This document shows positions 36,926 to 60,909 of a stretch of 64,000 bases of DNA, piece after piece; position 1 is the stretch's first letter, and each line of letters opens with the position of its first letter. Origin of the DNA: a virus; the IMG/VR virus record IMGVR_UViG_3300045988_162372; one strand, given 5' to 3'. A program made the translations under genes and the position numbers. The notes under the pieces were generated by a model, which was not told where the DNA came from, did no database searches, and saw only the letters and a list, made by a program, of their open reading frames with translations.

Positions 36926-36966
36926 TTAAAAATTAAACATTTAACTCTCTTATTATTTTAACACTG

Positions 36967-36974: not shown

Positions 36975-37052
36975 CAACAAAAATTTCATACTTGCAAGCG
37001 AATTAATATAATTTTATAGATATTTATCATTATAGATGATATTATTGAAAAT

Positions 37053-37448: not shown

Positions 37449-37543
37449 AAAACTTGTATAAATTATATTTTTGTCTCAAAAGAAAAAGTGGGTTATCATT
37501 TTGTCCTGATAATCCACTTTTAGTATATTATATAAGGCGATTT

Positions 37544-37924: not shown

Positions 37925-37933
37925 AATTGTATC

Positions 37934-38812: not shown

Positions 38813-39354
38813 TGTTTACGTTTCAAGATTACCATACTTCTGTTATTCTCATCACGTGGCATATTTTCTGGAATTGCCACATCTTCCATATATGTAATGA
38901 ACTTATACAAGCAAGTCTTTGATTCTTCACGTCTAGTAAGTTCCCTACCTTTCATAGTCAAAACAACTTTTACCTTATTCCCGTCCTTAATAAACTCTTT
39001 CGCCTTATTTACTTTAATAAGCAAATCATGTTCAGAGATATTGGTATTAAGCTGTACTTCTTTCAAGACTGATGTAACTTTCTTCTTAGCTTTCGCTTGT
39101 TTCTTCAACTCGTAAAGATATTTAGAATAATTTTCCATTTTTACAATTGCAGGTCTCGCTTTTCCATTGATTTCAATCAAATCAAGCTCATTCTTATCTG
39201 CAATTCGCTTTGCCTCTTCCAAAGAAACTACCTTATTAAATCCTTCCTCATTAATTGGACTGTAAATAAGTCTTACTATATCATACCCAGTAATATCTTC
39301 ATTGATACGAGGTTCATTAAAAGTCACATTCTTTTTTGAAAAATTGTTTGCCAT
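38809..39354 (-). CDS. infC: translation initiation factor IF-3
   Basis: 181 aa. INEDITGYDIVRLI..., LDLIEINGKARPAIVKMENYSKYLYE, then a Lys-rich linker and the C-domain VKVVLTMKGRE. Collinear with bacterial IF-3. Confidence 0.75.
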   Translation of the reverse strand: MANNFSKKNVTFNEPRINEDITGYDIVRLIYSPINEEGFNKVVSLEEAKRIADKNELDLIEINGKARPAIVKMENYSKYLYELKKQAKAKKKVTSVLKEVQLNTNISEHDLLIKVNKAKEFIKDGNKVKVVLTMKGRELTRREESKTCLYKFITYMEDVAIPENMPRDENNRSMVILKRKQ

Positions 39355-49334: not shown

Positions 49335-49697
49335 TTAATTTGATAACAATTTTTTAATATCAAAATTCTTTACCTTAACAGCAATAACTACACCAATATC
49401 TTTCATTACATAGATACGACAATAAGCGAACTTCGGTTGAAGTACCTTTTCCACCTCATATTTAAAATCATTGAATACATTAAGGATATCTGCTTTCTTT
49501 GCCTTAATAGCTTTCTTGTCATCAACATCTAATGCAAATTGACAATATTCAAAATCATCCATATCATAAGATTTTTTATCTTGGTTACTTGCCTCAATCA
49601 CAAATCCCTCATCTTCGATAAGATTATAAGTAGTGAATAACATCTTTTTAAATGGATTATTTAACAATTGTTCCATTAATTTATTTTTCGTAATCAT
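49335..49697 (-). CDS. hypothetical protein
   Basis: 120 aa ORF. Confidence 0.5.
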   Translation of the reverse strand: MITKNKLMEQLLNNPFKKMLFTTYNLIEDEGFVIEASNQDKKSYDMDDFEYCQFALDVDDKKAIKAKKADILNVFNDFKYEVEKVLQPKFAYCRIYVMKDIGVVIAVKVKNFDIKKLLSN

Positions 49698-49816
49698 GTC
49701 ATTAAAATTTTTATCTAATTTATTATTCTATTAAAAATAAAACAAACGCAAAACAAAATAATTGCTCTGCGTTCAAAATCCTTTTTGACATATTGGAATA
49801 CTTAACTTATTTTAAG

Positions 49817-49887
49817 TTGCGGCACCATGAATCGAACATGGATCTGAAGATTATGAGTCTCCCGCTTTACCTTTGAGCTATACCGCA
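49817..49887 (-). tRNA. tRNA-Met or Ile2 (anticodon CAT), elongator type
   Basis: Acceptor TGCGGTA/TGCCGCA, anticodon arm GGAGA-CTCATAA-TCTTC, T arm CCATG-TTCGATT-CATGG. No encoded CCA. Confidence 0.8.
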
Positions 49888-49935
49888 ATTTCTATTATAA
49901 ATAGTACATATCTCTAAAAATACTTTTTTTCTAAG

Positions 49936-50007
49936 CGGTCTATAAGAGAGTCGAACTCTTGTCTTAGCATCGACAGTGCCACATCCTAACCGTTGAACGA
50001 ATAGACC
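49936..50007 (-). tRNA. tRNA-Asp (GTC)
   Basis: Acceptor GGTCTAT/ATAGACC, anticodon loop CTGTCGA, T loop TTCGACT. Confidence 0.8.
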
Positions 50008-50009
50008 AA

Positions 50010-50152
50010 ATTAAGCAGAGAAAGGGTTAAGTTGGTGTCTTATAAACGATTATTACTGGAATCGAACCAGTTACCCTATATACCCAAAATATATGCTCTA
50101 ACCTAATGAGCTAAACAATCCGAAGTAACCAACTTTGTCACTACTGCTTTAT
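50010..50152 (-). ncRNA. clamp module A: bipartite leader/trailer stem enclosing tRNA-Pro
   Basis: Leader ATAAAGCAG-TAGTGA-CAAAGTTGGT-TACTTCG. Trailer ACCAACTT-AACCCTTTCT-CTGCTTAAT. The two helices (8 bp, and 8 of 9 bp) flank the conserved loop. Confidence 0.6.
50047..50120 (-). tRNA. tRNA-Pro (TGG)
   Basis: Acceptor GATTGTT/AATAATC (one G-U pair), D arm GCTC-ATTAGGTTA-GAGC, anticodon arm TATAT-TTTGGGT-ATATA, T arm ACTGG-TTCGATT-CCAGT. Confidence 0.8.
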
Positions 50153-50162
50153 ATTTTAAATA

Positions 50163-50283
50163 AACTCAAAGAAAATTAAGACAGCGTTTTGATTTCGACA
50201 GGAATCGAACCTGTAACACAAACCTTGGAAGGGTTTTTATCTACCATTGATATACGAAGTATCTGTCTTCTCACTATTGAGTT
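50163..50283 (-). ncRNA. clamp module D: bipartite stem enclosing a tRNA-Gly-like body
   Basis: Leader AACTCAA-TAGTGA-GAAGACAG-ATACTTCG. Trailer CTGTCTT-AATTTTCT-TTGAGTT. Both helices are 7 bp. Confidence 0.6.
50190..50261 (-). tRNA. tRNA-Gly (TCC)-like with a defective acceptor stem
   Basis: D arm TATC-AATGGTA-GATA, anticodon arm AAACC-CTTCCAA-GGTTT, T arm ACAGG-TTCGATT-CCTGT, 3' acceptor CGAAATC. The only 5' partner is the clamp's conserved TACTTCG (5 of 7 pairs). Confidence 0.5.
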
Positions 50284-50306
50284 ATCTCTTTATTTCTTTC
50301 ACATTG

Positions 50307-50314
50307 CAAATGTA
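50307..50314 (-). promoter_or_regulatory. Bacteroidetes -7 promoter box for the distal tRNA cluster
   Basis: caaatgta (TACATTTG on the - strand), 24 nt upstream of module D. Confidence 0.5.
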
Positions 50315-50458
50315 CAACTTTATTTCGAAACTACCAAATATTTTCCAAACTTTTTACAAAAAAAAATCAATCATCTTAATTTATATGATTGAATTTCATA
50401 AGTAACCATTAATGTTAATTCTTAACTTCCCCACCCTCAAACAGAAATTGGAGCATCT

Positions 50459-50551
50459 TTAATTCCAATTTCCGTACTTCATTATTCTTTCACCGTTAAT
50501 GACCATTCCCTCATATATGAGGTTAAGGACTTTCTTAATTACCTTCTTCAT
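50459..50551 (-). CDS. possible micro-ORF (30 aa)
   Basis: Hand-translated MKKVIKKVLNLIYEGMVINGERIMKYGNWN. Its ATG overlaps the stop of the upstream micro-ORF (TCATGA). Confidence 0.2.
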   Translation of the reverse strand: MKKVIKKVLNLIYEGMVINGERIMKYGNWN

Positions 50552-50691
50552 GACTTCTTCGAAATTGAATAATTATCATAAATGTAAGGCGGTATTGTAC
50601 AACTAGGATATATGCAGTTATTAGCATATTGTTTAAAATACCATTTCACGGCTCTTTTTGTTAAATTAAACATCTTTTTCATAACTTTCAT
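50548..50691 (-). CDS. possible small ORF (47 aa)
   Basis: Hand-translated MKVMKKMFNLTKRAVKWYFKQYANNCIYPSCTIPPYIYDNYSISKKS. Confidence 0.25.
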   Translation of the reverse strand: MKVMKKMFNLTKRAVKWYFKQYANNCIYPSCTIPPYIYDNYSISKKS

Positions 50692-50841
50692 CTTTTAAGA
50701 ATTAAATTAAATTATTATTAAAGTCTACATTTTCATTCATTACACCAATAAATATATGTCATTCATAAAAAATATGTTAAATAACATATTTTATTGATAC
50801 AAATCAATAAGACTAAAATAATGAATTATTATTTATTCTTG

Positions 50842-50928
50842 CGGAGAGCGGTGTACTCGAAACACAGACAAGCATTATGTCCGAAGCAACTTAGCAGGTT
50901 GTCCCTACACCTCGTAGGTTCACTCTCC
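50842..50928 (-). tRNA. tRNA-Ser (GCT), long variable arm
   Basis: Acceptor GGAGAGT/GCTCTCC, anticodon loop CTGCTAA, long variable region, T loop TTCGAGT. Some stems are imperfect. Confidence 0.65.
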
Positions 50929-51066
50929 AAAAATGACAGTTCCTATCCACACCCTAACTGTCAAAGGATAACTGGGATACGCTCAGTACAAGGTTTTCGA
51001 CTTGTTATCAACAAGACCTCAGTGTTACGTTGCTCCGTCTAACTAGTATTGTAGAGCTTCATGTTG

Positions 51067-51154
51067 CGGAGGCGGAAGGATTCGAACCTTCGGTACGCTC
51101 ATCACGCACGACGGTTTTCAAGACCGTTGCATTAAACCACTCTGCCACACCTCC
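51067..51154 (-). tRNA. tRNA-Ser (TGA), long variable arm
   Basis: Acceptor GGAGGTG/CGCCTCC, anticodon arm ACGGT-CTTGAAA-ACCGT, T arm GAAGG-TTCGAAT-CCTTC. Confidence 0.85.
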
Positions 51155-51370
51155 AATTTTACGCTGCCAATAGATAAACAGCTTACAGATATTCATCTAG
51201 TTTTTCTTCTACGTTTCAAAAACTTGATACTCGCCTGTTTCCTCACATTAACTAAAAACTACGTTCAGAGTAACGTTACCTCTCTATATCCGACAATTAA
51301 GGGTGTCAGAACATACCATACATTTTTGTAACTGTGCAATGTATAAAACATCCAGGTTCTCTATTTTATA

Positions 51371-51444
51371 GGGGGAAAGGTAGGAGTCAAACCTACTTCT
51401 GAAGAGCCACAATCTTCCATTCTAATCGTTGAACTACAATCCCC
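51371..51444 (-). tRNA. tRNA-His (GTG) with encoded G-1
   Basis: Anticodon arm GAAGA-TTGTGGC-TCTTC, T arm GTAGG-TTTGACT-CCTAC, an extra 5' G opposite C73. Two U-U mismatches in the acceptor stem. Confidence 0.6.
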
Positions 51445-51470
51445 ATATTAACTTTCTTTATCTCATTATG

Positions 51471-51541
51471 AGGCTCGTATTGGAGTTAAACCAATTTAAA
51501 CGGTTTTGCAGACCGCTGCATGTTCGACCTGCCCACGAGCC
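51471..51541 (-). tRNA. tRNA-Cys (GCA)
   Basis: Perfect acceptor GGCTCGT/ACGAGCC, U73, anticodon arm GCGGT-CTGCAAA-ACCGT, T arm ATTGG-TTTAACT-CCAAT. Atypical D arm. Confidence 0.7.
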
Positions 51542-51552
51542 ATTTTGTTAAG

Positions 51553-51625
51553 CATAGGCGGCACGACTCGAACATGCGACCAATGGTTTTGGAGACCATG
51601 ATTCTACCAACTGAATTACGCCTAT
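51553..51625 (-). tRNA. tRNA-Trp (CCA)
   Basis: Acceptor ATAGGCG/CGCCTAT, anticodon arm ATGGT-CTCCAAA-ACCAT, T arm GCATG-TTCGAGT-CGTGC. Confidence 0.8.
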
Positions 51626-51816
51626 GTATTAAATGTATTTTAAATAGAAATAACAGCTTGCTGCCCTTATTAATGCCTTACTCCGCAAGATAATAAAATT
51701 ATGTTTGAAATTAGGAAAGGAGGTAAATTGTATTCAAACATCTCGATTTTCACCTGATAGGGAGGATGACTTTAATTTGCAACCTATCAAAACATTATCG
51801 GCTTATTATTCTTCTG

Positions 51817-52290
51817 TTATTCTATTGTGATTGAAATCTTCTCACCTATTTCATGTACTTCTGTTAATTTTTCCATCAGCTCATGAAAGGTTGCTGTTGA
51901 ATTGACAACTTGCCCTTTGATTTTATTTTGACCAACAAGTAAACAGCCTAATGTATCTTCTGGCTTATTCCCAACATGGATTAAAACACCTTCATAACCA
52001 GGAACATTCATCAATCTTGGCAACTTTCCATCATAAGGTTTTGCCCAACTTCTATCTTTGAATTTAGGGCTTACAACATCCATATTGATTTCATAAGTTC
52101 CTGTCGGAATTGCTGTTTGACCATATACTTTCTTTTTCTTGATTTCCTCAATGGCCATATCGTTGGATAAACCTCTATCAACATCTTCAAGAGTGTCACA
52201 TTCGTAAACACCATCAACATACAATTTACCAATGGTATAAGTTTTTTGTTTTGCTATTCGTTTAAGTAATAATTTCATATTGCCATTCAT
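51817..52290 (-). CDS. DUF5675-like phage protein
   Basis: 157 aa. KRIAKQKTYTIGKLYVDGVYECDTLEDVDRGL and GCLLVG match my memory of this phage family. It is embedded in the tRNA island. Confidence 0.45.
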   Translation of the reverse strand: MNGNMKLLLKRIAKQKTYTIGKLYVDGVYECDTLEDVDRGLSNDMAIEEIKKKKVYGQTAIPTGTYEINMDVVSPKFKDRSWAKPYDGKLPRLMNVPGYEGVLIHVGNKPEDTLGCLLVGQNKIKGQVVNSTATFHELMEKLTEVHEIGEKISITIE

Positions 52291-52333
52291 TTTTTTTTTT
52301 GATTATTAATAAATAGCACTATGAAATCGAAAG

Positions 52334-52407
52334 TGTACCCACCGTGACTCGAACACGGGACTCTCACATTAAAAGTGTGATACTCTAACCAACTGAGTTA
52401 TGGATAC
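52334..52407 (-). tRNA. tRNA-Lys (TTT)
   Basis: Acceptor GTATCCA/TGGGTAC, D arm ACTC-AGTTGGTTA-GAGT, anticodon arm TCACA-CTTTTAA-TGTGA, T arm CCGTG-TTCGAGT-CACGG, A73. Confidence 0.85.
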
Positions 52408-52413
52408 TTATTG

Positions 52414-52487
52414 TGGAGCGTGTGAGACTCAAACTCACGACCTTCTGAGTGCAAATCAGATGCTCTCGTCAACTGAGCTAACGCCCC
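52414..52487 (-). tRNA. tRNA-Ala (TGC)
   Basis: Acceptor GGGGCGT/ACGCTCC with the G3-U70 identity pair. Anticodon loop TTTGCAC. Confidence 0.85.
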
Positions 52488-52496
52488 AAGGGGTTG

Positions 52497-52583
52497 TAGC
52501 CGAAGCGGGACTCGAACCCAGCACGGACATTACTGCCCAAGGGATTTTAAGTCCCTCATGTCTACCTATTCCATCATTCGGCC
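52497..52583 (-). tRNA. tRNA-Leu (TAA), long variable arm
   Basis: Acceptor GGCCGAA/TTCGGCT, anticodon arm AGGGA-CTTAAAA-TCCCT, T loop TTCGAGT, A73. Confidence 0.8.
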
Positions 52584-52593
52584 AAATTATATA

Positions 52594-52911
52594 TTAGAAA
52601 TACATATATTCAAATTCTTCATTCAATGGTATATTCTTACCTATTAAATCAGAACGTCTTATTTTTCTTCCTAATCCTTCTTCCATACATTTATAACAAA
52701 GATATAAATGTTCGTCTTCGATATTGCTCATTCTATATCCTGCTCTTACATGATGTTCTTCATATCTTTGTTCCGCTTCTTTTTCATATTTTTCAAGATT
52801 TAATTTTTTAACCACCTCTTTCCACCTGTTATCATTCAACATTGGAGATTGGCAATCACCATATAAAAATTTTCTGCCACAATTTTTGCATATACATACT
52901 GAACTTTTCAT
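52594..52911 (-). CDS. small zinc-ribbon protein
   Basis: Start moved to MKSSVCICKNCGRK, because the track start would overlap tRNA-Thr. Second Cys pair: CYKC. Confidence 0.5.
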   Translation of the reverse strand: MKSSVCICKNCGRKFLYGDCQSPMLNDNRWKEVVKKLNLEKYEKEAEQRYEEHHVRAGYRMSNIEDEHLYLCYKCMEEGLGRKIRRSDLIGKNIPLNEEFEYMYF

Positions 52912-52932
52912 ATTTTTTAATCTATTGATTTG

Positions 52933-53006
52933 AGCCTCTGGTCGGGTATGATCCGACAACCTCCTGATTACAAATCAGGTGCAACTACCAATTGTGCTAC
53001 AGAGGC
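52933..53006 (-). tRNA. tRNA-Thr (TGT)
   Basis: Perfect acceptor GCCTCTG/CAGAGGC, anticodon arm CCTGA-TTTGTAA-TCAGG. The T arm GTCGG-ATCATAC-CCGAC has an unusual loop. Confidence 0.7.
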
Positions 53007-53011
53007 AATTA

Positions 53012-53096
53012 AAGATAAAGAAAATCATCAAGAGTTTTGTAAAGTTCCATAATTCTCATATTTTTCACGAAGTATCTCTTGAATCACTATTATCTT
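53012..53096 (-). ncRNA. clamp module E: bipartite stem with only a 33-nt non-tRNA insert
   Basis: Leader AAGATAA-TAGTGA-TTCAAGAG-ATACTTCG. Trailer CTCTTGA-TGATTTTCT-TTATCTT. Both helices are 7 bp. Confidence 0.55.
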
Positions 53097-53106
53097 ATAT
53101 TTTTAA

Positions 53107-53230
53107 GGATAGAAGTTGGATTCCAACCAACAAACCGCACTTACCACGAGCTTCACGACCATGCTCTCGACTTTGCATTTCTGCTTTCAGATGAACTGTC
53201 ATTAGGTCGTTTTACCATCATTTTCTATCC
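53107..53230 (-). ncRNA. 124-nt tRNA-like RNA of unusual architecture
   Basis: Perfect 8-bp terminal stem GGATAGAA/TTCTATCC. A T-arm-like hairpin GTTGG-TTGGAAT-CCAAC abuts the 3' strand, with a D-arm-like GCTC-GTGGTAA-GTGC just upstream. A 6-bp helix ACGACC/GGTCGT encloses 44 nt. Confidence 0.45.
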
Positions 53231-53236
53231 TCTTTG

Positions 53237-53308
53237 TACTCGGTACGAGAATCGAACTCGTATTTTAAGAATGAAAATCTTACGTCCTAACCGTTAGACG
53301 AACCGAGC
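53237..53308 (-). tRNA. tRNA-Glu (TTC)
   Basis: Acceptor GCTCGGT/ACCGAGT, anticodon arm TAAGA-TTTTCAT-TCTTA, T arm ACGAG-TTCGATT-CTCGT. Confidence 0.8.
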
Positions 53309-53445
53309 ATAAAAATCAACCTTTTTACATTGATATATTAGGTTAAATGCGCACTTCCTATATTACCAAGAGGTAAACGTTTGATTAGGTTACTCGCAAA
53401 CCCGTAGAGAACATCCAATCCTCGCTGTCTCTCTTTTCCGCAGCG

Positions 53446-53530
53446 TTGGGGTGGTGAGATTCGAACTCACTCAGCCTTTACGACAACAGATTTACAGTCT
53501 GTCCCAGCTCTCCCACTCTGGCGCACCCCA
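53446..53530 (-). tRNA. tRNA-Tyr (GTA), long variable arm
   Basis: Perfect acceptor TGGGGTG/CACCCCA, anticodon arm ACAGA-CTGTAAA-TCTGT, T arm GTGAG-TTCGAAT-CTCAC. Confidence 0.85.
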
Positions 53531-53540
53531 ATTTATTTAG

Positions 53541-53614
53541 TAGGCATACTTGGACTTGAACCAAGGATCTCTACATTATCAGTGTAACGATTTAACCAAC
53601 TAATCTATATGCCT
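53541..53614 (-). tRNA. tRNA-Ile (GAT)
   Basis: Acceptor AGGCATA/TATGCCT, anticodon loop CTGATAA, T arm CTTGG-TTCAAGT-CCAAG. Confidence 0.8.
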
Positions 53615-53997
53615 ATAAATTTTATTAATATTGTAAGCAAGGCACAGGTTTGTCTACAAGCCTAACCACTAATACCTACACCCTTATGGTCTTACCACTT
53701 GGACTTGTTTTCTGCATGGAATAATCCACCGTTTTTAGTTTCAACTTACAATATTAATAAGCATAGCCTTTGTTATTCTTTTTACAGTGTCTATATCGTA
53801 TTATTGGTAACTCGTTCGACCATGACTAACCAACTATATTTTTCTAACCAAATAATACGCTTAATTATAAAATGATAACATTAACGTAGTATATTTACCA
53901 CTCTATAATACGACTTAACTGTCAATTATAAATTATACATATATACACACCATAACTACGTCTTTCAGTGATGAAGTTTCACTGCCCTATTGTGTTG
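53615..53997 (-). ncRNA. ORF-free structured spacer with three stem-closed domains
   Basis: Closing helices: ttaatattgtaag/cttacaatattaa (53626-53758, 13 bp), cgtattatt-gg/ccaaataatacg (53797-53859, about 12 bp), acgtagt/actacgt (53884-53961, 7 bp). Confidence 0.35.
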
Positions 53998-54072
53998 TGG
54001 ACATTCCTTGAATCGAACAAGGTTAAATGGATTTTCAGTCCATCGCAATATCACCAGACCTGCCCAATGTCC
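53998..54072 (-). tRNA. tRNA-Phe (GAA)
   Basis: Perfect acceptor GGACATT/AATGTCC, anticodon arm ATGGA-CTGAAAA-TCCAT, T arm CCTTG-TTCGATT-CAAGG. Confidence 0.85.
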
Positions 54073-54083
54073 TTAAAAAATAA

Positions 54084-54230
54084 ATGTAAAGAGAACAATT
54101 AAAGTTTGTGTTAAAATTAAAAGTTCTGCAAACTTTCGTGTATACCATTTCACCACATATCCGAAAATTGAGGATATGGTCGGAATCGAACCGACAAAAT
54201 CGAAGTAACAAACTTTTCACTACTTTACAT
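54084..54230 (-). ncRNA. clamp module B enclosing a circularly permuted tRNA-Cys(GCA)-like body
   Basis: - strand order: leader ATGTAAAG-TAGTGA-AAAGTTTGT-TACTTCG; ATTTT; T arm GTCGG-TTCGATT-CCGAC; 3' acceptor CATATCC; 9-nt loop TCAATTTTC; 5' acceptor GGATATG; D arm GTGA-AATGGTAT-ACAC; anticodon arm AAAGT-TTGCAGA-ACTTT; trailer ACAAACTTT-AATTGTTCT-CTTTACAT. Confidence 0.6.
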
Positions 54231-54232
54231 AG

Positions 54233-54304
54233 AGCAGGTGAACAGAATCGAACTGTCATCCTCTGCTTGGAAGGCAGACGCACTAACCGTTGTGCTACAC
54301 CTGC
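54233..54304 (-). tRNA. tRNA-Gly (TCC)
   Basis: Perfect acceptor GCAGGTG/CACCTGC, anticodon arm TCTGC-CTTCCAA-GCAGA, T arm GACAG-TTCGATT-CTGTT. Confidence 0.85.
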
Positions 54305-54311
54305 AAAAAAT

Positions 54312-54454
54312 AACAATAGAGAAACTTCAAAACAGTTTTTTGTATTATCAATTCTTAAAAGGAATTTGCTCTAACCGACTGAGCTAATCTGAATATCAGA
54401 TGATGGACTCGAACCACCGCTTAACGAAGTAACTGTTTTATCACTACTATTGTT
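54312..54454 (-). ncRNA. clamp module C enclosing a circularly permuted tRNA-Lys(TTT)-like body
   Basis: - strand order: leader AACAATAG-TAGTGA-TAAAACAGT-TACTTCG; TTAAGC; T arm GGTGG-TTCGAGT-CCATC; acceptor hairpin ATCTGA-TAT-TCAGAT; TA; D arm GCTC-AGTCGGTTA-GAGC; anticodon arm AATTC-CTTTTAA-GAATT; trailer AACTGTTTT-GAAGTTTCT-CTATTGTT. Confidence 0.6.
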
Positions 54455-54457
54455 TTG

Positions 54458-54528
54458 CGGGAGTAGAAGGAATCGAACCTTCACCTAATGATTAACAGTC
54501 ATTTGCTCGACCTTCGAGCTATACTCCC
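54458..54528 (-). tRNA. tRNA-Asn (GTT)
   Basis: Perfect acceptor GGGAGTA/TACTCCC, anticodon arm AATGA-CTGTTAA-TCATT, T arm GAAGG-TTCGATT-CCTTC. Confidence 0.85.
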
Positions 54529-55212
54529 AATTGTGTTTCCTCTATTATCACAACAGTAGAAACACTTAAATAGTTACTACCATAAAAAATTCATAAAAAT
54601 ATCAATTATGTGTTGTTACACCAAAATCAATATAATGCTGTAAATCCCTTTTCAGTTCAACTGGTCACTTTCATAACCAATAGCTCTACAACATTTGAAC
54701 CGTACTCCTGATTATACAAATTTATTTTAGTTATAAGTGCAAGGTTTTTATATCATCAGTTTGTGTACAAGTTTCTTTTAACATTTATCGGACTAAGTTG
54801 CGTTTCTTCCTATCACCAGAAGGCGTTAATAGATCCCGTGCGCAGATACTCATTATATGATAGCTACTCTCAAGCCTACATTTAATTGATAATTTTTATT
54901 ATATTCCCCTAACAGCACTCCTGTCAATCACTCCATCCTAAAGGTTAGAGCTTGAGCAAAGGGGATTAACCCTTTGACATGGCATATTGACAAAGGCTCT
55001 TACATGGTCTTGGAAACACCAATTCCACTTGCGTTCATAATAGACTGTTGCCCTCTTCAATATTATTAGAAGGTTCAAGATTTCTGGTTTGGGAATTAAG
55101 CTACTGTAAACCTTTGTTCGCTTTTCGTTATATTAAGTTGTTCCAATATGTCAAAGAACTCATCTTGCTTTTATCTTTGTCAAAATCTCAACTGCAACCC
55201 TTGTTTTGATTT
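54529..55212 (-). ncRNA. about 680-nt ORF-free, promoter-driven region (candidate large structured ncRNA)
   Basis: No ORF of 60 aa or more on either strand. It looks less AT-rich than ordinary spacers here. A -7 box sits at 55220-55227, and there are many local helices (for example CAAAGGG-TTAATC-CCCTTTG and GTGTTTC...GAAACAC). Confidence 0.4.
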
Positions 55213-55219
55213 GACATTG

Positions 55220-55227
55220 CAAAGATA
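55220..55227 (-). promoter_or_regulatory. Bacteroidetes -7 promoter box
   Basis: caaagata at the head of the 680-nt noncoding region and the tRNA array. Confidence 0.5.
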
Positions 55228-55288
55228 CTGCAAGTTTTTGAAATCTCCAAATTTTTATTGTTAAAAATTGTAGAATTTTCAAATTTTG

Positions 55289-55363
55289 TTGGGATTGAAG
55301 GAGTCGAACCTTCCTTTTCAGATCCAAATTCTGACGTAATCAAGACCGATATACGAAACCCCA
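55289..55363 (-). tRNA. tRNA-Gln (TTG)
   Basis: Acceptor TGGGGTT/AATCCCA, anticodon arm TCAGA-ATTTGGA-TCTGA, T arm GAAGG-TTCGACT-CCTTC. Long D loop. Confidence 0.7.
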
Positions 55364-55393
55364 ATCTTTTTCAAAGAACTCTTCTTTATTTTG

Positions 55394-55484
55394 TCAGGAT
55401 GGAGGGATTCGAACCCCCGTTTGACTGTTACATCTACTCTCCTGCTCCCAAAGCAGGCATGTTGACCTACTACACCACATCCTG
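55394..55484 (-). tRNA. 91-nt tRNA with Pro anticodon (TGG) and a 22-nt unpaired variable-region insert
   Basis: Perfect acceptor CAGGATG/CATCCTG, D arm GTGT-AGTAGGTCA-ACAT, anticodon arm CCTGC-TTTGGGA-GCAGG, insert AGAGTAGATGTAACAGTCAAAC, T arm GGGGG-TTCGAAT-CCCTC, A73. Confidence 0.55.
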
Positions 55485-55505
55485 TTTATTTTCTTTTTCA
55501 CTCTG

Positions 55506-55513
55506 CAAAGATA
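55506..55513 (-). promoter_or_regulatory. Bacteroidetes -7 promoter box
   Basis: caaagata, 22 nt upstream of the 91-nt tRNA. Confidence 0.55.
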
Positions 55514-55544
55514 CAAACAATTTTTGAAACTACCAAATATTTTC

Positions 55545-56048
55545 TCAAAAATCTTTTGTTCTTTTTCTTATTTCACAAACATCATATCCAAGCAACCCTT
55601 CATTATAACTTTCCACGTAATATACTATCCATTTATCGTAGTAATCCAATCTTGGAAAGAACGTATCAGCATCATTAACCCTTTTCTTTATTCTTGTAAG
55701 ATATATCTTATCCACAATATCCTTTTCAAGTGCTTCCTTGTAAATACTTCCACCACCTATAATATATATGTCTTTTTCATATTCCTTTGCTTTCTTCATT
55801 GCTTCTTCAAGACTGTGAACCCATATCAGATTTCCTTCGTCTTTATTGTCACTTCTACTGACAACAATGTTTATTCTATCTTTCAATGGTTTTCCAATAC
55901 TTTCATATGTTTTTCTTCCCATAATGACTACATTACTAGTCGTTAATCTTTTAAAATTTTGCATATCTTCTTTCAAATGAAAGAGAAGTTTGTTATCTTT
56001 TCCTATTGCATCATTCTCGCTTACCGCTACTATAATAATTGTTTCCAT
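55545..56048 (-). CDS. folA: dihydrofolate reductase
   Basis: 167 aa with IVAVSENDAIGKDNKL, VIMGRKTYESIG and IIGGGSIY motifs. Confidence 0.85.
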   Translation of the reverse strand: METIIIVAVSENDAIGKDNKLLFHLKEDMQNFKRLTTSNVVIMGRKTYESIGKPLKDRINIVVSRSDNKDEGNLIWVHSLEEAMKKAKEYEKDIYIIGGGSIYKEALEKDIVDKIYLTRIKKRVNDADTFFPRLDYYDKWIVYYVESYNEGLLGYDVCEIRKRTKDF

Positions 56049-56157
56049 AATCCTTTTTAAATTTTAATTACCATTACTAAATAAAGAAAGCTGTAAATTA
56101 AACTTTTTCTTTGTTTACTTACAGCTTCTGGGAATATATGTTGATTGAATTGAGGAC

Positions 56158-56322
56158 TTAATTTGTCATTTTTCGTTTTATTCCTTTCGCTGCTTTCAAC
56201 TTTTTATTTTCTGACCATGTGGGTTGTAATGGTTGATTTGCATTAAAACAAGAAATTTCATAATGATAATTTCCATTACCATTATAACTAAAACATCCGT
56301 ATGTAAATTGTTTACTGTTCAT
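56158..56322 (-). CDS. small hypothetical protein (54 aa)
   Basis: Hand-translated MNSKQFTYGCFSYNGNGNYHYEISCFNANQPLQPTWSENKKLKAAKGIKRKMTN. Confidence 0.25.
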   Translation of the reverse strand: MNSKQFTYGCFSYNGNGNYHYEISCFNANQPLQPTWSENKKLKAAKGIKRKMTN

Positions 56323-56863
56323 CTGTTTTTTCTTGTTTCTTCGTCTATTTCAAAATATAAATATATCAAACTTTTCAAAAGTTATCAATATTTTTAAAAA
56401 AATCATAATAAAAATAAAAAATATTGGGTATAGCAGCCATGTACAAACCATATAGTCAAGAAATATACTAACTAAACTACCTCATGGATTTCATCTTCCT
56501 TTTATGCTTTCATTCATTAAGCAATAGAAGAATTTAACCTTTCAGTTTTAAGGTTTCAGCCTTAATGGGGAAAATAAACGATATCAAATCTACACTCTCC
56601 CAAAAACTTTAACCTTTCAGGTTTGATATTTAATCTTTAAGCCTTGAGCTTTTCTGTTCAATCTGTCCAGAAAAATAGTCTTAACTATAATTCTCAAAAG
56701 TCTTAAAATATTATATTATCTAACCATTCAAAATTATTAACCCAAATCTTGAAAAGGGATTCCTTGTTTAAGGGTTTTCGCTATAACCAATATTTTTTTG
56801 TTCAATTGAAGTCATCCTATAAAGGATGACCTCTCTTATATATTAAACACTTCTCACAGTCTT

Positions 56864-57487
56864 TTACACCTCAACAGTTACAGTTGCATTTGCCTCAGAT
56901 AAAACAGCGTCTACCTCTGTCATAAAGCCGTCAATCTCGTTTCTCAGAGTTTCCAACTTCTGTTTTAGATTAATCGGGTCTACTGCCTTGATTGCGTTTG
57001 TTTCGTTGTAACTCTTTGTCAGAGCCTCTACTGTGCTTGCGTCCGCCTTTGAACTATCTTTACCAGTTGCACTAAGGATAAGGTTGTTCAACTTTTCCTC
57101 GTTAGTTCTACTTTCATTTTCAAACTTTGCGAGATACTCCTGATATAGACGATTCAAACGCTTGTATTCAAGCTCCTTATAAGAAATTACAGTCTTGTAG
57201 TCGATAGCCTCGGCAATTGTCATTGCCATTCCATTAACTATTACTGTATGTGTTGCATTCGCCAAAATCAAAGCCCTCTTCAAGTCATATCTACGTTGAA
57301 TAAGTGCTTCAAGAGACTCTACATCTGCCTTTGCATTAGATGTAAATTCATCTTCTGATACAGGTTTCAAGAACTTATCACCTTTCTTAATGCCAATCAC
57401 ATCAAGTTTGGCAACACCATTATTGATTCTCTTATCAAGAGTTTTCAACTCACTCAACACTCTGTGCAATGTCATCTTCTGTGTCAT
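56864..57487 (-). CDS. coiled-coil protein, possibly DIP1984/septicolysin-like
   Basis: 207 aa with a helical pattern (LHRVLSELKTLDKRI ... ILANATHTV ... MTIAEAIDYK). Weak recollection of the family. Confidence 0.3.
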   Translation of the reverse strand: MTQKMTLHRVLSELKTLDKRINNGVAKLDVIGIKKGDKFLKPVSEDEFTSNAKADVESLEALIQRRYDLKRALILANATHTVIVNGMAMTIAEAIDYKTVISYKELEYKRLNRLYQEYLAKFENESRTNEEKLNNLILSATGKDSSKADASTVEALTKSYNETNAIKAVDPINLKQKLETLRNEIDGFMTEVDAVLSEANATVTVEV

Positions 57488-57532
57488 AACAAAAAACTTT
57501 AAATGTTAAACCTAATATTTATTTTCTTTTTG

Positions 57533-57606
57533 TACCCCAAGTTGGATTCAAACCAACGGCCCACATCTTAGAAGGATGTTGCTCTATTCAACTGAGCTAT
57601 TGGGGC
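57533..57606 (-). tRNA. tRNA-Arg (TCT)
   Basis: Acceptor GCCCCAA/TTGGGGT, D arm GCTC-AGTTGAATA-GAGC, anticodon arm ACATC-CTTCTAA-GATGT, T arm GTTGG-TTTGAAT-CCAAC. Confidence 0.85.
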
Positions 57607-57626
57607 ATCCTTTTTCTTTCACGTTG

Positions 57627-57634
57627 CAAAGATA
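57627..57634 (-). promoter_or_regulatory. Bacteroidetes -7 promoter box
   Basis: caaagata, 21 nt upstream of tRNA-Arg. Confidence 0.55.
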
Positions 57635-59134: not shown

Positions 59135-59241
59135 TCATTCTTACATTTTGATATTTCAATTATATTAAAAATTAAAAGTTGGTTATTATACAAACATTTA
59201 CATCCATATGACAACCAACTTGCATTCGAAATTTTCAGTGC

Positions 59242-60909
59242 TTAAATTTCAATCGCTTCTATTTCTTTCAAGATTGCACCAAAGCCCTTAGTATTGGACT
59301 TGATTACATCAAAGATGTTTGCACTCCATCCTGCAATATTCAAAACACGTTCTGGTTTGTAGAACACATTATTTCCCCTGGTGTTGTGTATATCTACTAC
59401 AATGATATTGCAAAGAGGATTAATCTTTCTGAATTGTTTTATCAAATCTTGGAATGTTGCACTTCTTTCAGTTCCACTTGTCCCGTACCAAGACGTAGAA
59501 CCGCTTGAGCCAATTTGACAATCTGAAAAGACAATGATGTTGTCAATTTTCTTCTTTTCTCTTACAGCTTGTCTAAAGAAGTCATAAATACCTTGCTCAG
59601 TTCCTCCACCACAGTTTGCACCTTTATCAAACGACCTCTTGTTGAAATCAAGCAATCTTTGGCTTCTATCAATTTTTACTGGGATAAGTCTGTCACCAAA
59701 CAATCCAATATATACATTCTTCTGACGGTATGCCATCATACTTCCAAACAAATTGCCAATCATAGCAGTAGTTGTTTTGGAAAACGCTGACACTCTTGAA
59801 CTTCCACCACCATCCCCGCGTACCGATCCCGAATGATCAATCAATATTGCAGTATTTCCTTCCAATTCTGGAATATTCTGACAAGAAATCTGCAATGCAT
59901 CTTCAATTGCATCCAGTACCTTTTCCTTCAATTTAGCAAACTCCGTAGCGGTTATTGTCTGATTGTTGTAATCTTCCTCAAATGCAATAGAGGTATCACT
60001 CTTTTTATCAGAAAAACTCATCTTTTCGATTTCCTCGTAAGCTGTTGCGAAACGGAAAGGAAGCAATCTTGAATTCAAGACAGCGGTTTCGTTTGTCAAC
60101 TGTGCGCAAGCATCATCTACGCTCTTAGGCGCATAAAGAATAATGTTTCTCAGATTTCTCAAGAGATTCATTATAGGCATACCCTTAACATTAGACAATA
60201 CGTTTTCGATTGCCTCTTTCTTGGCAGCTTCTTTCTCTTGCACACTCTTCCCTTGTGTCTTTTGTCCTGCCTTTGTCATTTCCTTTTCCAACACCTTTGA
60301 GGCATACAGTCCTGCAAGTGATTCACCATTGACAAGGTTGTGATAAGCCTGTTGGTTTCTCTGTGTCCCCTTTGGATGGAAAAGATTAACCAAATCAAGC
60401 ATTTTAACCTGACGACTGTTCATCTTGTACTTATCAATCTGATAAACATCCAAACGCTCCAATGCAGTCTTAAAACCTTTCTTGATAGCATTAGGTATTT
60501 TTCTGATTTTCTTCAAATCCATCTTGTTCTGAACAGCATAGGCTGACAGAATTTCAGACATATCATCTGGACGAACAACAATCTTATTGTAGAATCTCTT
60601 CGACCATTCTGTACCAGATGCTCTCTTTGCAATTGTTGCTGCAATCAAATGTGATACTGAACGTAGATTTCCTTCATTACGCACGTATAGTGCCAACTTT
60701 GCGGCGAACAAAGGATCCACCTCGTTCAACTTGTTCACAATTCTGTTTACAACTTCCTTTTCTGTCTCGTAATAATGATCACCAGACAAGAATGTTGTCA
60801 TACAAGTTGATACCAACTCTTCTTTTGCTGAAAGTTGATATGCGTTCTCACCCATTGCATTTACTACTGTAGGCTTTACGCCTTCTGCTTTTGCGTTGTA
60901 CTTACTCAT
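59242..60909 (-). CDS. rsr: Ro60 ortholog (TROVE domain + vWA domain)
   Basis: 555 aa. The N-terminal NAMGENAYQLSAKEEL...FYE...DPLFAAKLALYVRNEGNLR is TROVE-like. The C-terminal vWA has the MIDAS motif LIDHSGSVRG. Confidence 0.7.
   Translation of the reverse strand: MSKYNAKAEGVKPTVVNAMGENAYQLSAKEELVSTCMTTFLSGDHYYETEKEVVNRIVNKLNEVDPLFAAKLALYVRNEGNLRSVSHLIAATIAKRASGTEWSKRFYNKIVVRPDDMSEILSAYAVQNKMDLKKIRKIPNAIKKGFKTALERLDVYQIDKYKMNSRQVKMLDLVNLFHPKGTQRNQQAYHNLVNGESLAGLYASKVLEKEMTKAGQKTQGKSVQEKEAAKKEAIENVLSNVKGMPIMNLLRNLRNIILYAPKSVDDACAQLTNETAVLNSRLLPFRFATAYEEIEKMSFSDKKSDTSIAFEEDYNNQTITATEFAKLKEKVLDAIEDALQISCQNIPELEGNTAILIDHSGSVRGDGGGSSRVSAFSKTTTAMIGNLFGSMMAYRQKNVYIGLFGDRLIPVKIDRSQRLLDFNKRSFDKGANCGGGTEQGIYDFFRQAVREKKKIDNIIVFSDCQIGSSGSTSWYGTSGTERSATFQDLIKQFRKINPLCNIIVVDIHNTRGNNVFYKPERVLNIAGWSANIFDVIKSNTKGFGAILKEIEAIEI

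What the first reader, a model, noticed from the sequence alone, without database searches (positions are those of the whole stretch)
50010..54454. Five-copy structured RNA family: a covarying bipartite stem with a conserved UAGUGA / UUCU internal loop clamps tRNA or tRNA-like cargo
Five minus-strand elements share one architecture: L1 - TAGTGA - L3 - (A/T)TACTTCG - cargo - T3 - N4-6TTCT - T1.

Leaders:
- A: ATAAAGCAG|TAGTGA|CAAAGTTGGT|TACTTCG
- B: ATGTAAAG|TAGTGA|AAAGTTTGT|TACTTCG
- C: AACAATAG|TAGTGA|TAAAACAGT|TACTTCG
- D: AACTCAA|TAGTGA|GAAGACAG|ATACTTCG
- E: AAGATAA|TAGTGA|TTCAAGAG|ATACTTCG

Trailers:
- A: ACCAACTT|AACCCTTTCT|CTGCTTAAT
- B: ACAAACTTT|AATTGTTCT|CTTTACAT
- C: AACTGTTTT|GAAGTTTCT|CTATTGTT
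- D: CTGTCTT|AATTTTCT|TTGAGTT
- E: CTCTTGA|TGATTTTCT|TTATCTT

In every copy L3 pairs with T3 (7-9 bp) and L1 pairs with T1 (7-8 bp). The helix sequences differ between copies, which is compensatory covariation. The loop strands TAGTGA and TTCT and the junction TACTTCG are invariant. That pattern argues for selection on an RNA (or single-stranded DNA) structure, not for recent duplication.

The cargo differs per copy: normal tRNA-Pro (A), permuted Cys-like (B), permuted Lys-like (C), Gly-like (D), 33 nt of non-tRNA sequence (E). The modules are packed within 2-11 nt of canonical tRNAs. I know of no described family with this layout. Possible roles: a processing or circularisation scaffold, a protein-binding platform (see the Ro60 gene), or tRNA decoys.
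Basis: seen in the sequence. Interest (0 to 1): 0.9.

Follow-up and report, generated by a model that had tools for sequence, protein, structure and literature searches.

The report
Phage Y RNA-like clamps carrying tRNAs
Five small structured RNAs in this gut phage's tRNA cluster share a conserved "clamp" that most likely docks the phage's own Ro60 protein, making them a new, modular variant of the known Y RNA class, with whole tRNAs, rearranged tRNA look-alikes or short loops as the exchangeable part.

Summary
Five minus-strand elements share TAGTGA-N9-10-TACTTCG leaders (5 found, 0.01 expected), and their 5' and 3' ends form two helices. Relatives occur in 31 other Ro60 (TROVE) phage loci: 77 motif hits on the Ro60 strand against 2 opposite. 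On 40 distinct clamps, 97% of cells pair (58% shuffled) and 15 of 16 pairs change on both sides. The "UAGUGA/UUCU loop" is really a bulged U, two more pairs (A-U in 33 copies, G-C in 7, no exceptions) and a small asymmetric loop.

The layout is not undescribed. It is the Y RNA plan: a terminal stem-bulge-stem plus a variable module. The 555-aa TROVE gene at 59242-60909 matches only Ro60 structures. In relatives the elements lie 19-1500 nt from that gene; in GenBank phage csAssE-Sib three sit in tandem just upstream of it. Permuted-cargo copies give sub-threshold Rfam YrlA hits (21-35 bits; threshold 69).

Differences from known Y RNAs:
- a different conserved motif;
- up to five copies per genome;
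- cargo that includes complete tRNAs and permuted tRNA mimics keeping an anticodon arm;
- cargo loops or anticodons that switch between near-identical strains.

Verdict: new variant of a known kind. Ro60 binding is inferred, not shown.

The parts
54312..54454 (-). Element C. L1 54454-54447, UAGUGA 54446-54441, L3 54440-54432, UACUUCG 54431-54425, then the permuted tRNA-like cargo: T-arm, closed 6-bp acceptor hairpin, D-arm, anticodon arm with loop CUUUUAA. Trailer: T3 ACTGTTTTG, 3' loop AAGTTTCT, T1 CTATTGTT ending at 54312.
   Evidence: Rfam YrlA full-length hit of 33.3 bits (gathering score 69).
54084..54230 (-). Element B. L1 54230-54223, UAGUGA 54222-54217, L3 54216-54208, UACUUCG 54207-54201, then the permuted cargo: T-arm, 7-bp closed acceptor hairpin, D-arm, and a stem-loop with apical UUGCAGA. 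The trailer ends at 54084.
   Evidence: Rfam YrlA 21.2 bits. The apical loop differs in five ways among strains.
53012..53096 (-). Element E. L1 53096-53090, UAGUGA 53089-53084, L3 53083-53075, UACUUCG 53074-53068, 32-33 nt of non-tRNA cargo, T3 53034-53028, 3' loop 53027-53019, T1 53018-53012. This is the minimal Y RNA-like form.
   Evidence: Covariance model R1 gives 34.1 bits, E 3.4e-5.
50163..50283 (-). Element D. L1 50283-50277, UAGUGA 50276-50271, L3 50270-50262, UACUUCG 50261-50255, which doubles as the 5' acceptor strand of a Gly(UCC)-like tRNA mimic (50190-50261, acceptor stem 5/7). T3 50184-50178, 3' loop 50177-50170, T1 50169-50163.
   Evidence: R1 gives 32.6 bits. The L001 ortholog keeps the fold through compensatory changes but has anticodon UUU.
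50013..50149 (-). Element A. L1 50149-50144, UAGUGA 50143-50138, L3 50137-50128, UACUUCG 50127-50121, cargo tRNA-Pro(UGG) 50120-50047 in normal order with a 7/7 acceptor stem, 10-nt linker, T3 50036-50029, 3' loop 50028-50019, T1 50018-50013.
   Evidence: (tRNA 58.9 bits).
59242..60909 (-). Ro60 ortholog (TROVE protein, 555 aa), the predicted protein partner. It is on the same strand, 4.8-9.1 kb upstream of the elements, and is followed by a terminator-like hairpin at about 59135-59215.
   Evidence: Pfam TROVE 63.6 bits (cut-off 23). PHROG 850 match over the full length. PDB sequence hits to phiLo phiRo60 (9KOP, 9L5Y). AlphaFold model (pLDDT 62) whose 13 significant Foldseek PDB hits are all Ro60 proteins. 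Terminator-like hairpin.

Best explanation
The five elements are phage-encoded Y RNA-like RNAs, the RNA partners of the phage's own Ro60 (TROVE) protein.

Steps shown here:
- Each element's 5' and 3' ends pair into two covarying helices. These are separated by a bulged U, two further pairs and a small asymmetric internal loop, so the element is a stem-bulge-stem.
- The 5' strand carries two conserved blocks, URGUGR and UAC(U/A)UCG.
- The enclosed module is exchangeable: a complete tRNA, a permuted tRNA mimic or a short loop.
- The family travels with Ro60 genes in gut phages, on the same strand and often directly adjacent.

Steps inferred:
- The elements are co-transcribed with the tRNA array. 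Their ends are cut out by the enzymes that process the flanking tRNAs (RNase P downstream, 3' trimming upstream).
- The Ro60 ring binds the clamp through the conserved 5'-strand bases.
- The variable module acts as the effector end, as in known Y RNAs. It either tethers Ro60 to proteins that recognise tRNA (host nucleases, modification or repair enzymes, PNPase-type partners) or offers a tRNA-shaped decoy, and it gates access to Ro60's central cavity.
For: 1. Structure: MFE folds of all five copies. Covariation on 15 and 40 distinct clamps, with 99% and 97% of cells paired against 55-58% shuffled. Swap test 30/44 against 11/352. G.U 21 against A.C 2, which favours RNA from this strand.
2. Partner gene: Pfam TROVE. 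All 13 significant fold matches are Ro60 proteins over the full length.
3. Linkage: across 51 Ro60 loci (891 kb) there are 77 motif hits on the Ro60 strand and 2 on the other, and the widened motif gives 42 hits against 2.5 expected. Elements lie 19-56 nt after the Ro60 stop in L011, L013, L014 and L016, 33-60 nt before the start in L013, L014 and L017, and 440-1500 nt upstream in L007, L009, L010, L012, L018 and L019. Three sit in tandem directly upstream of the annotated 'Ro sixty-related protein' in GenBank phage csAssE-Sib. These clades have Ro60 proteins only 52-65% identical to the window's.
4. Resemblance to known Y RNAs: full-length sub-threshold Rfam YrlA hits to permuted copies of 33.3, 21.2, 34.5 and 28.5 bits. 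The T / acceptor-hairpin / D order matches YrlA, and a YUAY-like UUAC opens the module. Both tRNA topologies are known among bacterial Y RNAs, in YrlA and Yrn1.
5. Precedent: a phage Ro60 binding two phage-encoded stem-bulge-stem RNAs upstream of its gene has been shown experimentally.
Against: - There are no binding or expression data.
- In this window the elements lie 4.8-9.1 kb from the Ro60 gene, beyond the 4-kb criterion of Chen 2014, and a terminator-like hairpin follows Ro60.
- The classical 5' motif (GGUCCGA / GNCGAAN0-1G) is absent. CGA follows the junction in only 21/44 distinct copies and CGAA in 8/44.
- All Rfam YrlA scores are far below the gathering score.
- Three Ro60 loci with full flanks (L005, L020, L030) show no copy.
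- All comparison loci were fetched through Ro60 homology, so co-occurrence alone is partly a sampling effect. The positional adjacency across divergent clades is the stronger argument.
- Element A's cargo looks like a fully functional tRNA-Pro.
Confidence: 0.7

Rival explanations
1. The clamps are pre-tRNA processing or maturation scaffolds that do not involve Ro60. Paired leader and trailer would control or guide cleavage, releasing the embedded tRNAs. For the permuted copies, they would hold two halves together for cutting in the acceptor loop, CCA addition or ligation.
For: The elements lie inside a dense tRNA array, 1-11 nt from neighbouring tRNAs. UACUUCG abuts or overlaps tRNA position +1. 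Cargo A is a good tRNA-Pro (58.9 bits), while the other tRNA-Pro in the window is atypical. The phage encodes a CCA-adding enzyme and an RlaP RNA-repair nucleotidyltransferase. M. smegmatis YrlA can be cut by RNase P and receive CCA.
Against: About half of the distinct copies carry only 17-40 nt of non-tRNA cargo, and these are the ones next to Ro60. Several cargo tRNAs have defective acceptor stems of 4-5/7 pairs, or lack U33 (L027, L028). No bulge-helix-bulge motif is present, and no splicing endonuclease or RNA ligase was found in the window. This reading does not explain why the clamp follows the Ro60 gene across clades.
Confidence: 0.12
2. The clamp is a structured RNA platform for a different protein, phage or host (for example an RNA-repair, modification or nuclease factor). 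Its association with the Ro60 gene would then be only shared ancestry or synteny.
For: The conserved motif is unlike known Ro60 sites. The window's copies are several kb from Ro60, behind a terminator-like hairpin. Three Ro60 loci have no copy. Other RNA-handling genes are present.
Against: The elements lie within 19-60 nt of the Ro60 reading frame in clades whose Ro60 proteins are only 52-65% identical to the window's and whose surrounding genes differ. 77 of 79 hits are on the Ro60 strand. The architecture and the YrlA-like cargo point specifically to Y RNAs.
Confidence: 0.1
3. The signal acts on DNA. The inverted repeats would mark a mobile or recombination cassette (like a miniature transposon or an integron attC site) that shuttles tRNA-sized cargo.
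For: Cargo can differ completely between identical clamps (L010b against L012b). Anticodons swap in otherwise identical elements. The arrangement looks like a cassette.
Against: The helix sequences are not conserved but covary, unlike transposon ends. G.U pairs outnumber A.C 21 to 2, and there is strong strand bias. The conserved bases lie in unpaired positions on one strand. No target-site duplications or associated recombinase were seen next to the elements.
Confidence: 0.04

Closest known systems
YrlA (Rfam RF02553), the bacterial and phage Y RNA-like tRNA mimic (Chen et al. 2014, PMC4201824; structure 6CU1)
   Same: The 5' and 3' ends form a long stem with an asymmetric internal loop. A YUAY-like UUAC opens the module. 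T-arm, closed acceptor-like hairpin, then D-arm, in elements B and C, L004 and csAssE-Sib copy 1. Encoded on the Ro60 strand near Ro60. Full-length alignments to the Rfam model.
   Different: Scores of 21-35 bits against a gathering score of 69. No GNCGAAN0-1G near the 5' end; URGUGR and UACUUCG instead. B and C keep a complete anticodon-type arm, so the clamp emerges from the variable-loop position rather than replacing the anticodon stem. Other paralogs carry normal-order tRNAs or no tRNA-like part at all. Up to five copies per genome.
Yrl1 and Yrl2 of Thermus phage phiLo, with phiRo60 (PMC12135203; PDB 9KOP, 9L5Y)
   Same: A phage-encoded Ro60 with several phage-encoded stem-bulge-stem RNAs on the same strand near its gene. 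phiRo60 is the best sequence and fold match to the window's protein.
   Different: The phiLo RNAs were picked out by a CGAA motif in the bulge and have no tRNA cargo. Here the conserved blocks differ, CGAA is only occasional, and the cargo includes tRNAs. Binding is shown for phiLo and only inferred here.
Deinococcus radiodurans Yrn1 (Ro60/Rsr - Y RNA - PNPase 'RYPER' complex)
   Same: A Y RNA whose tRNA-like part is in normal order (D-like, anticodon-like arm, T-arm), with the Ro60-binding stem extending from the acceptor end, as in elements A and D.
   Different: Yrn1 is only partly tRNA-like and carries the GGC.GA-type Ro60 site. A and D contain cargo that standard tRNA finders score as tRNAs.
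Circularly permuted tRNA genes (red alga Cyanidioschyzon merolae; some archaea). From general knowledge, not tested against sequences here.
   Same: The 3' half (T-arm, 3' acceptor strand) precedes the 5' half (5' acceptor strand, D-arm, anticodon arm), with paired leader and trailer, as in B and C.
   Different: Those genes use a bulge-helix-bulge junction cut by the splicing endonuclease and are circularised. Here the junction is a bulged-U stem with an asymmetric loop, no such enzyme was seen, and the same clamp also encloses non-permuted and non-tRNA cargo.

Membership tests
Y RNA (functional class: RNA bound by Ro60) | Physically bound by Ro60 | not testable with these tools
   Needs immunoprecipitation or an in vitro binding assay.
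Y RNA (functional class: RNA bound by Ro60) | 5' and 3' ends pair into a long stem interrupted by a bulge or internal loop (stem-bulge-stem), with a variable module beyond it | tested here: met
   Folds. Covariation on 40 clamps with 97% of cells paired and 15/16 pairs changing on both sides.
Y RNA (functional class: RNA bound by Ro60) | Encoded close to a Ro60 gene (within about 4 kb in Chen 2014) on the same strand | tested here: inconclusive
   The strand is the same in all five window copies, but the distance is 4.8-9.1 kb. In relatives it is 19-1500 nt. 77 of 79 hits are on the Ro60 strand. L005, L020 and L030 have no copy.
Y RNA (functional class: RNA bound by Ro60) | Conserved CGA-containing 5'-strand motif (GGUCCGA, GNCGAAN0-1G or CGAA) | tested here: inconclusive
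   There is no such motif near the 5' end. The invariant UAC(U/A)UCG is followed by A in 21/44 distinct copies and by AA in 8/44. Infernal aligns YrlA's gCgaA to CUUCGA in L004.
YrlA (Rfam RF02553) | Score at or above the Rfam gathering score of 69 bits | tested here: not met
   C 33.3, B 21.2, L004 34.5 and csAssE-Sib copy 1 28.5 bits. Nothing reached the gathering threshold.
YrlA (Rfam RF02553) | tRNA-like domain in the order T-arm, closed acceptor-like hairpin, D-arm | tested here: met
   Met for B and C. Not applicable to A and D (normal order) or E (no tRNA-like part).
YrlA (Rfam RF02553) | The Ro60-binding stem replaces the anticodon stem, with no anticodon loop | tested here: not met
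   C keeps a 5-bp stem with a 7-nt loop (CUUUUAA) after the D-arm. B keeps a stem-loop there whose register is ambiguous (5 bp with UUGCAGA, or a longer stem with a smaller loop). In both the clamp attaches at the variable-loop position.
YrlA (Rfam RF02553) | Conserved YUAY at the start of the variable region | tested here: met
   UUAC in A, B and C. AUAC in D and E, where the first position is not a pyrimidine.
Ro60 / TROVE protein (the neighbouring gene) | TROVE domain above Pfam's cut-off, and a full-length Ro60 fold (helical-repeat ring plus vWA-like domain) | tested here: met
   Pfam 63.6 bits against a cut-off of 23. The model is of moderate confidence (pLDDT 62). Its 13 significant PDB matches are all Ro60, over 526-558 aligned columns, and the next hit has E = 0.3.
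Ro60 / TROVE protein (the neighbouring gene) | Metal-ion-dependent adhesion site in the vWA domain | not tested
   Residue-level comparison was not done, and the model is weak in parts of the C-terminal domain.
Circularly permuted tRNA gene | Bulge-helix-bulge motif at the leader-trailer junction, for the splicing endonuclease | tested here: not met
   The junction is a 7-9 bp helix, a one-base bulge, 2 bp, a 3 x 5-8 nt loop and a 7-9 bp helix. I did not see the two 3-nt bulges separated by 4 bp that I recall as the bulge-helix-bulge definition.
tRNA (cargo of A and D) | Rfam tRNA score above 29 bits and an intact 7-bp acceptor stem | tested here: inconclusive
   A scores 58.9 bits with 7/7 pairs. 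D scores 51.8 bits, but only 5/7 pairs form and the conserved UACUUCG serves as its 5' strand. Function in translation cannot be tested here.

The most novel reading that the evidence does not exclude
The clamp is a universal Ro60 docking handle that gut phages attach to interchangeable tRNA-shaped modules. The anticodon or apical loop of the module would be the specificity determinant and would be under diversifying selection. The RNAs would then act as Ro60-tethered decoys or sensors for host tRNA-targeting defences such as anticodon nucleases. At the same time, having normal-order, permuted and minimal forms under one clamp would make them living intermediates for the proposed origin of Y RNAs from tRNA transcripts.
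Probability: 0.2. Interest if true: 0.85.

Novelty: new variant of a known kind. Interest (0 to 1): 0.62.

Why it matters
**Open questions about Y RNAs.** What the tRNA-like end of bacterial Y RNAs binds, and where Y RNAs came from, are both unresolved. This family places one conserved clamp around three kinds of module in a single genome: a genuine tRNA, tRNA mimics in both topologies, and bare loops. Close strains differ mainly in the anticodon or apical loop. That gives a natural series for testing what the effector end recognises, and for testing the tRNA-origin hypothesis.

**Abundance.** The carriers appear to be widespread gut phages: crAss-like phages and jumbo phages of about 350-400 kb.

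**Annotation.** At least two tRNAs annotated as ordinary in a GenBank phage record (tRNA-Tyr and tRNA-Lys of csAssE-Sib) are in fact clamp cargo with imperfect acceptor stems. Counts of phage tRNAs may therefore be inflated by Y RNA modules.

Tried and rejected
1. Rfam at gathering thresholds finds only tRNAs. The Rfam E-value scans run here (window 49500-58000, L004 9700-10000, L013 9800-11900 and L056 3450-4000) gave no Y_RNA hit, no ribozyme hit apart from one very weak Plasmodium RNase P match (18.6 bits, gathering 100), and no riboswitch hit. The short elements next to Ro60 in L013 hit nothing meaningful.
2. My first loose descriptor scan gave 9 hits on reversed control sequence against 19 real ones, so I did not use it as evidence.
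3. MAFFT on clamp-only sequences put the trailers out of register. I replaced it with equal-length curated fields. The register was chosen by pairing, which is a bias; I addressed it with slid controls and the swap test.
4. The covariance model R1 with filters off lost even the known copies, probably because of a hit-length limit. With default filters it penalises long cargo and misses A, B and C.
5. A megablast of the region against deposited phages found only tRNA fragments.
6. By eye, I considered a kink-turn or box C/D motif, hammerhead or hairpin ribozyme cores, and a UUCG tetraloop. As far as I recall those consensus motifs, the 3' strand has no conserved GA or CUGA, and UUCG lacks a closing pair.
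7. I did not pursue retroelement-driven diversification of the cargo loops (a reverse transcriptase lies at 9027-10232). I did not look for a template repeat, and from general knowledge such systems rewrite adenines, which G/A-to-U/C anticodon changes do not resemble.
8. I did not run a forward test asking whether the motif occurs in phages without Ro60. Exact-pattern scans of the collections would be swamped by chance matches, and the stored flanks are too short to prove that Ro60 is absent.

Full report
**1. What is in the window.** The minus strand from 49.8 to 57.6 kb carries 21 tRNA genes. Five elements within it share the leader TAGTGA-N9-10-TACTTCG. The pattern occurs exactly five times in 64 kb, against 0.01 expected from shuffles. 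Their positions are C 54312-54454, B 54084-54230, E 53012-53096, D 50163-50283 and A 50013-50149. In each, the 7-9 nt before TAGTGA pair with the last 7-9 nt of the element, and the 7-10 nt after TAGTGA pair with a segment just before a U-rich stretch ending in CT. Both helices appear in the minimum-free-energy fold of all five.
- A holds a normal tRNA-Pro(UGG).
- D holds a Gly(UCC)-like tRNA whose 5' acceptor strand is the conserved TACTTCG itself (5 of 7 pairs).
- B and C hold permuted tRNA look-alikes: T-arm, closed acceptor hairpin, D-arm, then a stem-loop in the anticodon-arm position.
- E holds about 33 nt with no tRNA features.

**2. The family exists elsewhere and covaries.** The window encodes a 555-aa TROVE-domain protein at 59242-60909 on the same strand. 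I used that protein to fetch 20 viral contigs, 3 contigs from genome assemblies and further metagenome contigs, 51 loci in all including the window.
- The exact motif or a slightly widened form (T[AG]GTG[AG] N7-12 TAC[AT]T[CG][GT]) gives 77 hits on the TROVE strand and 2 on the other across 891 kb. In the first 21 sources (the window plus 20 viral loci) it gave 42 hits where 2.5 are expected.
- On a curated alignment of 15 clamps, and then of 40 distinct clamps, 99% and 97% of cells form standard pairs. The figures are 55-58% after shuffling partners and 34-50% after sliding them. 14/14 and 15/16 pairs change on both sides.
- The registers were chosen by pairing, so I added a swap test with identical search freedom. 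A leader finds a trailer scoring >=14 in its own downstream sequence in 30/44 cases, but in only 11/352 cases in the downstream sequence of unrelated elements.
- G.U pairs outnumber A.C 21 to 2. This fits an RNA folded from this strand, with the caveat that G.U counted as a pair when registers were chosen.

**3. Refined anatomy.** Every TAGTGx copy has a 3' loop ending in CT, and every TGGTGx copy has one ending in CC (33 A-U, 7 G-C, no exceptions). So the first U is a one-base bulge, the next two bases pair, and the true internal loop is UGR opposite 5-8 mostly U-rich bases. The layout is: outer helix, bulged U, R-Y and G-C pairs, asymmetric loop, inner helix, UAC(U/A)UCG, cargo. This is a stem-bulge-stem made by the RNA's two ends.

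**4. The neighbouring protein is a Ro60.**
- Pfam TROVE scores 63.6 bits against a cut-off of 23.
- A phage RNA-binding-protein family matches over the full length.
- The only PDB sequence hits are phiRo60 of Thermus phage phiLo.
- An AlphaFold model of moderate confidence (pLDDT 62) has an all-helical N-terminal two-thirds and an alternating beta/alpha C-terminal domain.
- Its 13 significant Foldseek matches are all Ro60 proteins (phiLo, Xenopus, human, Deinococcus) over essentially the full length. The next match has E = 0.3.

**5. Linkage to Ro60.** In the window the elements lie 4.8-9.1 kb downstream of Ro60, and a terminator-like hairpin follows the gene. In relatives they are much closer:
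- 19-56 nt after the stop codon in L011, L013, L014 and L016 (Ro60 only 52% identical);
- 33-60 nt before the start in L013, L014 and L017, and similarly close in L023;
- 440-1500 nt upstream in L007, L009, L010, L012, L018 and L019.

The nearest deposited genomes are crAss-like phage cr111_1 and phage csAssE-Sib. In csAssE-Sib three clamp elements stand in tandem directly upstream of the gene annotated 'Ro sixty-related protein'. One has permuted T / acceptor-hairpin / D cargo. The other two enclose what the record annotates as ordinary tRNA-Tyr and tRNA-Lys, both with imperfect acceptor stems that begin inside UACUUCGAA. Three loci with full flanks (L005, L020, L030) have no detectable copy, so the association is strong but not universal. 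All loci were sampled through Ro60 homology, so the adjacency across divergent clades carries more weight than co-occurrence does.

**6. Comparison with what is known.** Y RNAs are defined by a long stem formed by the two ends that carries the Ro60 site, plus a variable effector module.
- Bacterial and phage YrlA RNAs have a tRNA-like module in exactly the T / acceptor-hairpin / D order. They also have a conserved YUAY after the stem and a gene near Ro60 on the same strand. Deinococcus Yrn1 has the opposite, normal order.
- Rfam's YrlA model aligns end to end with C, B, L004 and csAssE-Sib copy 1, but at 21-35 bits against a threshold of 69. Formal membership is therefore not met.
- The proposed Ro60 motif GNCGAAN0-1G is absent. 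The family conserves URGUGR and UAC(U/A)UCG instead. CGA follows the junction in 21/44 distinct copies and CGAA in 8/44.
- In the L004 alignment, Infernal places YrlA's gCgaA on the junction's CUUCGA. The junction block may therefore be the counterpart of the Ro60 contact, but I cannot settle which block binds.
- For phage phiLo, experiments show a phage Ro60 binding two phage-encoded stem-bulge-stem RNAs upstream of its gene and engaging host PNPase. Single CGAA substitutions in a simplified Yrl2 mimic weaken binding only 3-4-fold.
- The jumbo-phage review notes TROVE proteins but describes no RNA partner. The 2026 paper on gut 'Jug' jumbo phages contains none of the terms I searched for (tRNA, TROVE, Ro60, noncoding and others). 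My literature searches found no description of this clamp.

**7. What differs from known Y RNAs.**
- (a) The conserved bases differ.
- (b) There are up to five paralogs per genome, embedded in the tRNA array.
- (c) One clamp encloses three kinds of cargo: normal-order tRNAs, permuted mimics that keep an anticodon-position stem-loop (so the clamp emerges from the variable-loop position rather than replacing the anticodon stem), and short loops.
- (d) The cargo is exchangeable on short evolutionary time scales.

**8. Evidence for cargo exchange.**
- L009a and L019a are identical over 138 nt except for anticodon positions 34-35 (GAU against UCU), while the surrounding DNA is only about 85% identical. 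L012a has UUU.
- Window D (UCC) and its L001 ortholog (UUU) keep all stems through compensatory changes.
- Window C (UUU) and L001 C (GUA) have fully covarying anticodon stems.
- L027 and L028, which encode the same Ro60 protein, differ in A-type cargo at one base, loop position 33. Neither has the U found there in functional tRNAs.
- The B-type apical loop has five versions, and L010b and L012b have identical clamps with unrelated 17-nt loops.
- Other orthologs keep their anticodon: the C type is UUU in most strains, and the L006/L023 type keeps NGU. Switching is therefore frequent but not universal.

**9. Mechanism.**
- Shown: the fold, its conservation and covariation, the Ro60 identity of the neighbouring gene, the linkage, and the modular cargo.
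- Inferred: co-transcription with the tRNA array and release by the enzymes that process the flanking tRNAs (the elements lie 1-11 nt from neighbouring tRNAs); binding of the Ro60 ring to the clamp through the conserved 5'-strand bases; and use of the variable module to tether Ro60 to tRNA-recognising proteins or to act as a tRNA-shaped decoy.
- Context: the window also encodes a CCA-adding enzyme, an RlaP-family RNA-repair nucleotidyltransferase, PTH2, IF3 and YqeY. This fits a phage that invests in tRNA and RNA maintenance. I found no RNA ligase in the window.

**10. Verdict.** This is a real, strongly supported structured-RNA family, best read as Y RNA-like partners of a phage Ro60 (confidence about 0.7). 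It is a new variant of a known kind rather than a new class. The most interesting open possibility is that the clamp is a docking handle for swappable tRNA or anticodon modules used in conflicts with the host.

Noticed in passing
L009 5914-6039, L019 1461-1586, L012 8663-8789; window 50163-50283 vs L001 20962-21086; L027 17705 vs L028 18706: The anticodon or apical loop of the cargo switches between otherwise near-identical elements. Examples are GAU, UCU and UUU; UCC and UUU; and loop position 33 as A, G or U. Clamps and tRNA stems meanwhile stay identical or covary. This looks like diversifying selection on the loop.
   Followed up: partly
L056 (GenBank OR575929.1, phage csAssE-Sib) 3494-3926: The tRNA-Tyr and tRNA-Lys annotated in this deposited genome are clamp cargo with imperfect acceptor stems. 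They sit in tandem, together with a YrlA-like copy, directly upstream of the annotated Ro60 gene. Phage tRNA counts may therefore include Y RNA modules.
   Followed up: yes
L002 and L003 9962-9989: A minimal hairpin, TTATTAA-TAGTGA-TAAA-TTCT-TTAATAA, lies 12 nt upstream of the Ro60 start codon. It has the outer helix and both conserved loop strands but no inner stem and no cargo. It could be a remnant or an autoregulatory Ro60 site in the mRNA leader, or it could be chance in AT-rich DNA.
   Followed up: no
window 55393-55484 (-): The second tRNA-Pro(UGG) is 92 nt long, with about 17 extra bases in the variable region. The L001 counterpart is 74 nt. It is unclear whether it is functional, which bears on whether element A's tRNA-Pro is redundant.
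   Followed up: partly
window 53098-53232 (-): A structured stretch of about 128 nt lies between tRNA-Glu and element E. It has a 10-bp terminal stem (GAGGAUAGAA / UUCUAUCCUU) with a T-arm-like hairpin next to its 3' strand. Folding z-score is -3.5, with 0/200 shuffles folding as well. It has no Rfam match.
   Followed up: partly
window 50856-51060 and 51170-51360 (-): These are long stretches inside the tRNA array with no tRNA or ORF call. The first ends in a T-arm-like GUGUUUCGAGUACAC followed by CGCUCUCC, which could pair with an upstream GGAGAG. This may be a long-variable-arm tRNA (Ser-GCU-like) that neither ARAGORN nor Rfam called.
   Followed up: no
window 9027-10232 and 11206-13848 (-): A reverse transcriptase gene lies next to an 880-aa DUF285 / leucine-rich-repeat protein. 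The arrangement resembles a diversity-generating retroelement with its target. I did not look for template and variable repeats.
   Followed up: no
window 24179-28897, 36410-39354 (-): A cluster of translation and RNA-maintenance genes: YqeY, a CCA-adding enzyme, an RlaP RNA-repair nucleotidyltransferase, PTH2 and IF3. Hsp70/DnaJ, an FtsH-like protease, a sigma factor and NAD synthase are also present. This is typical of very large phages.
   Followed up: partly
window 59135-59245 (-): Just after the Ro60 stop codon there is a small hairpin containing UUCGAAUG (a CGAA motif). It is followed by a strong 11-bp hairpin and a U-run that looks like an intrinsic terminator.
   Followed up: no
L030 19579-20250; L035 and L036 6060-7325; L045 5377-6642: One relative (L030) has an RNA ligase gene (PF09414) in its tRNA region but no detectable clamp. 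Several strains carry IS605/TnpB-type insertions a few kb upstream of Ro60.
   Followed up: no
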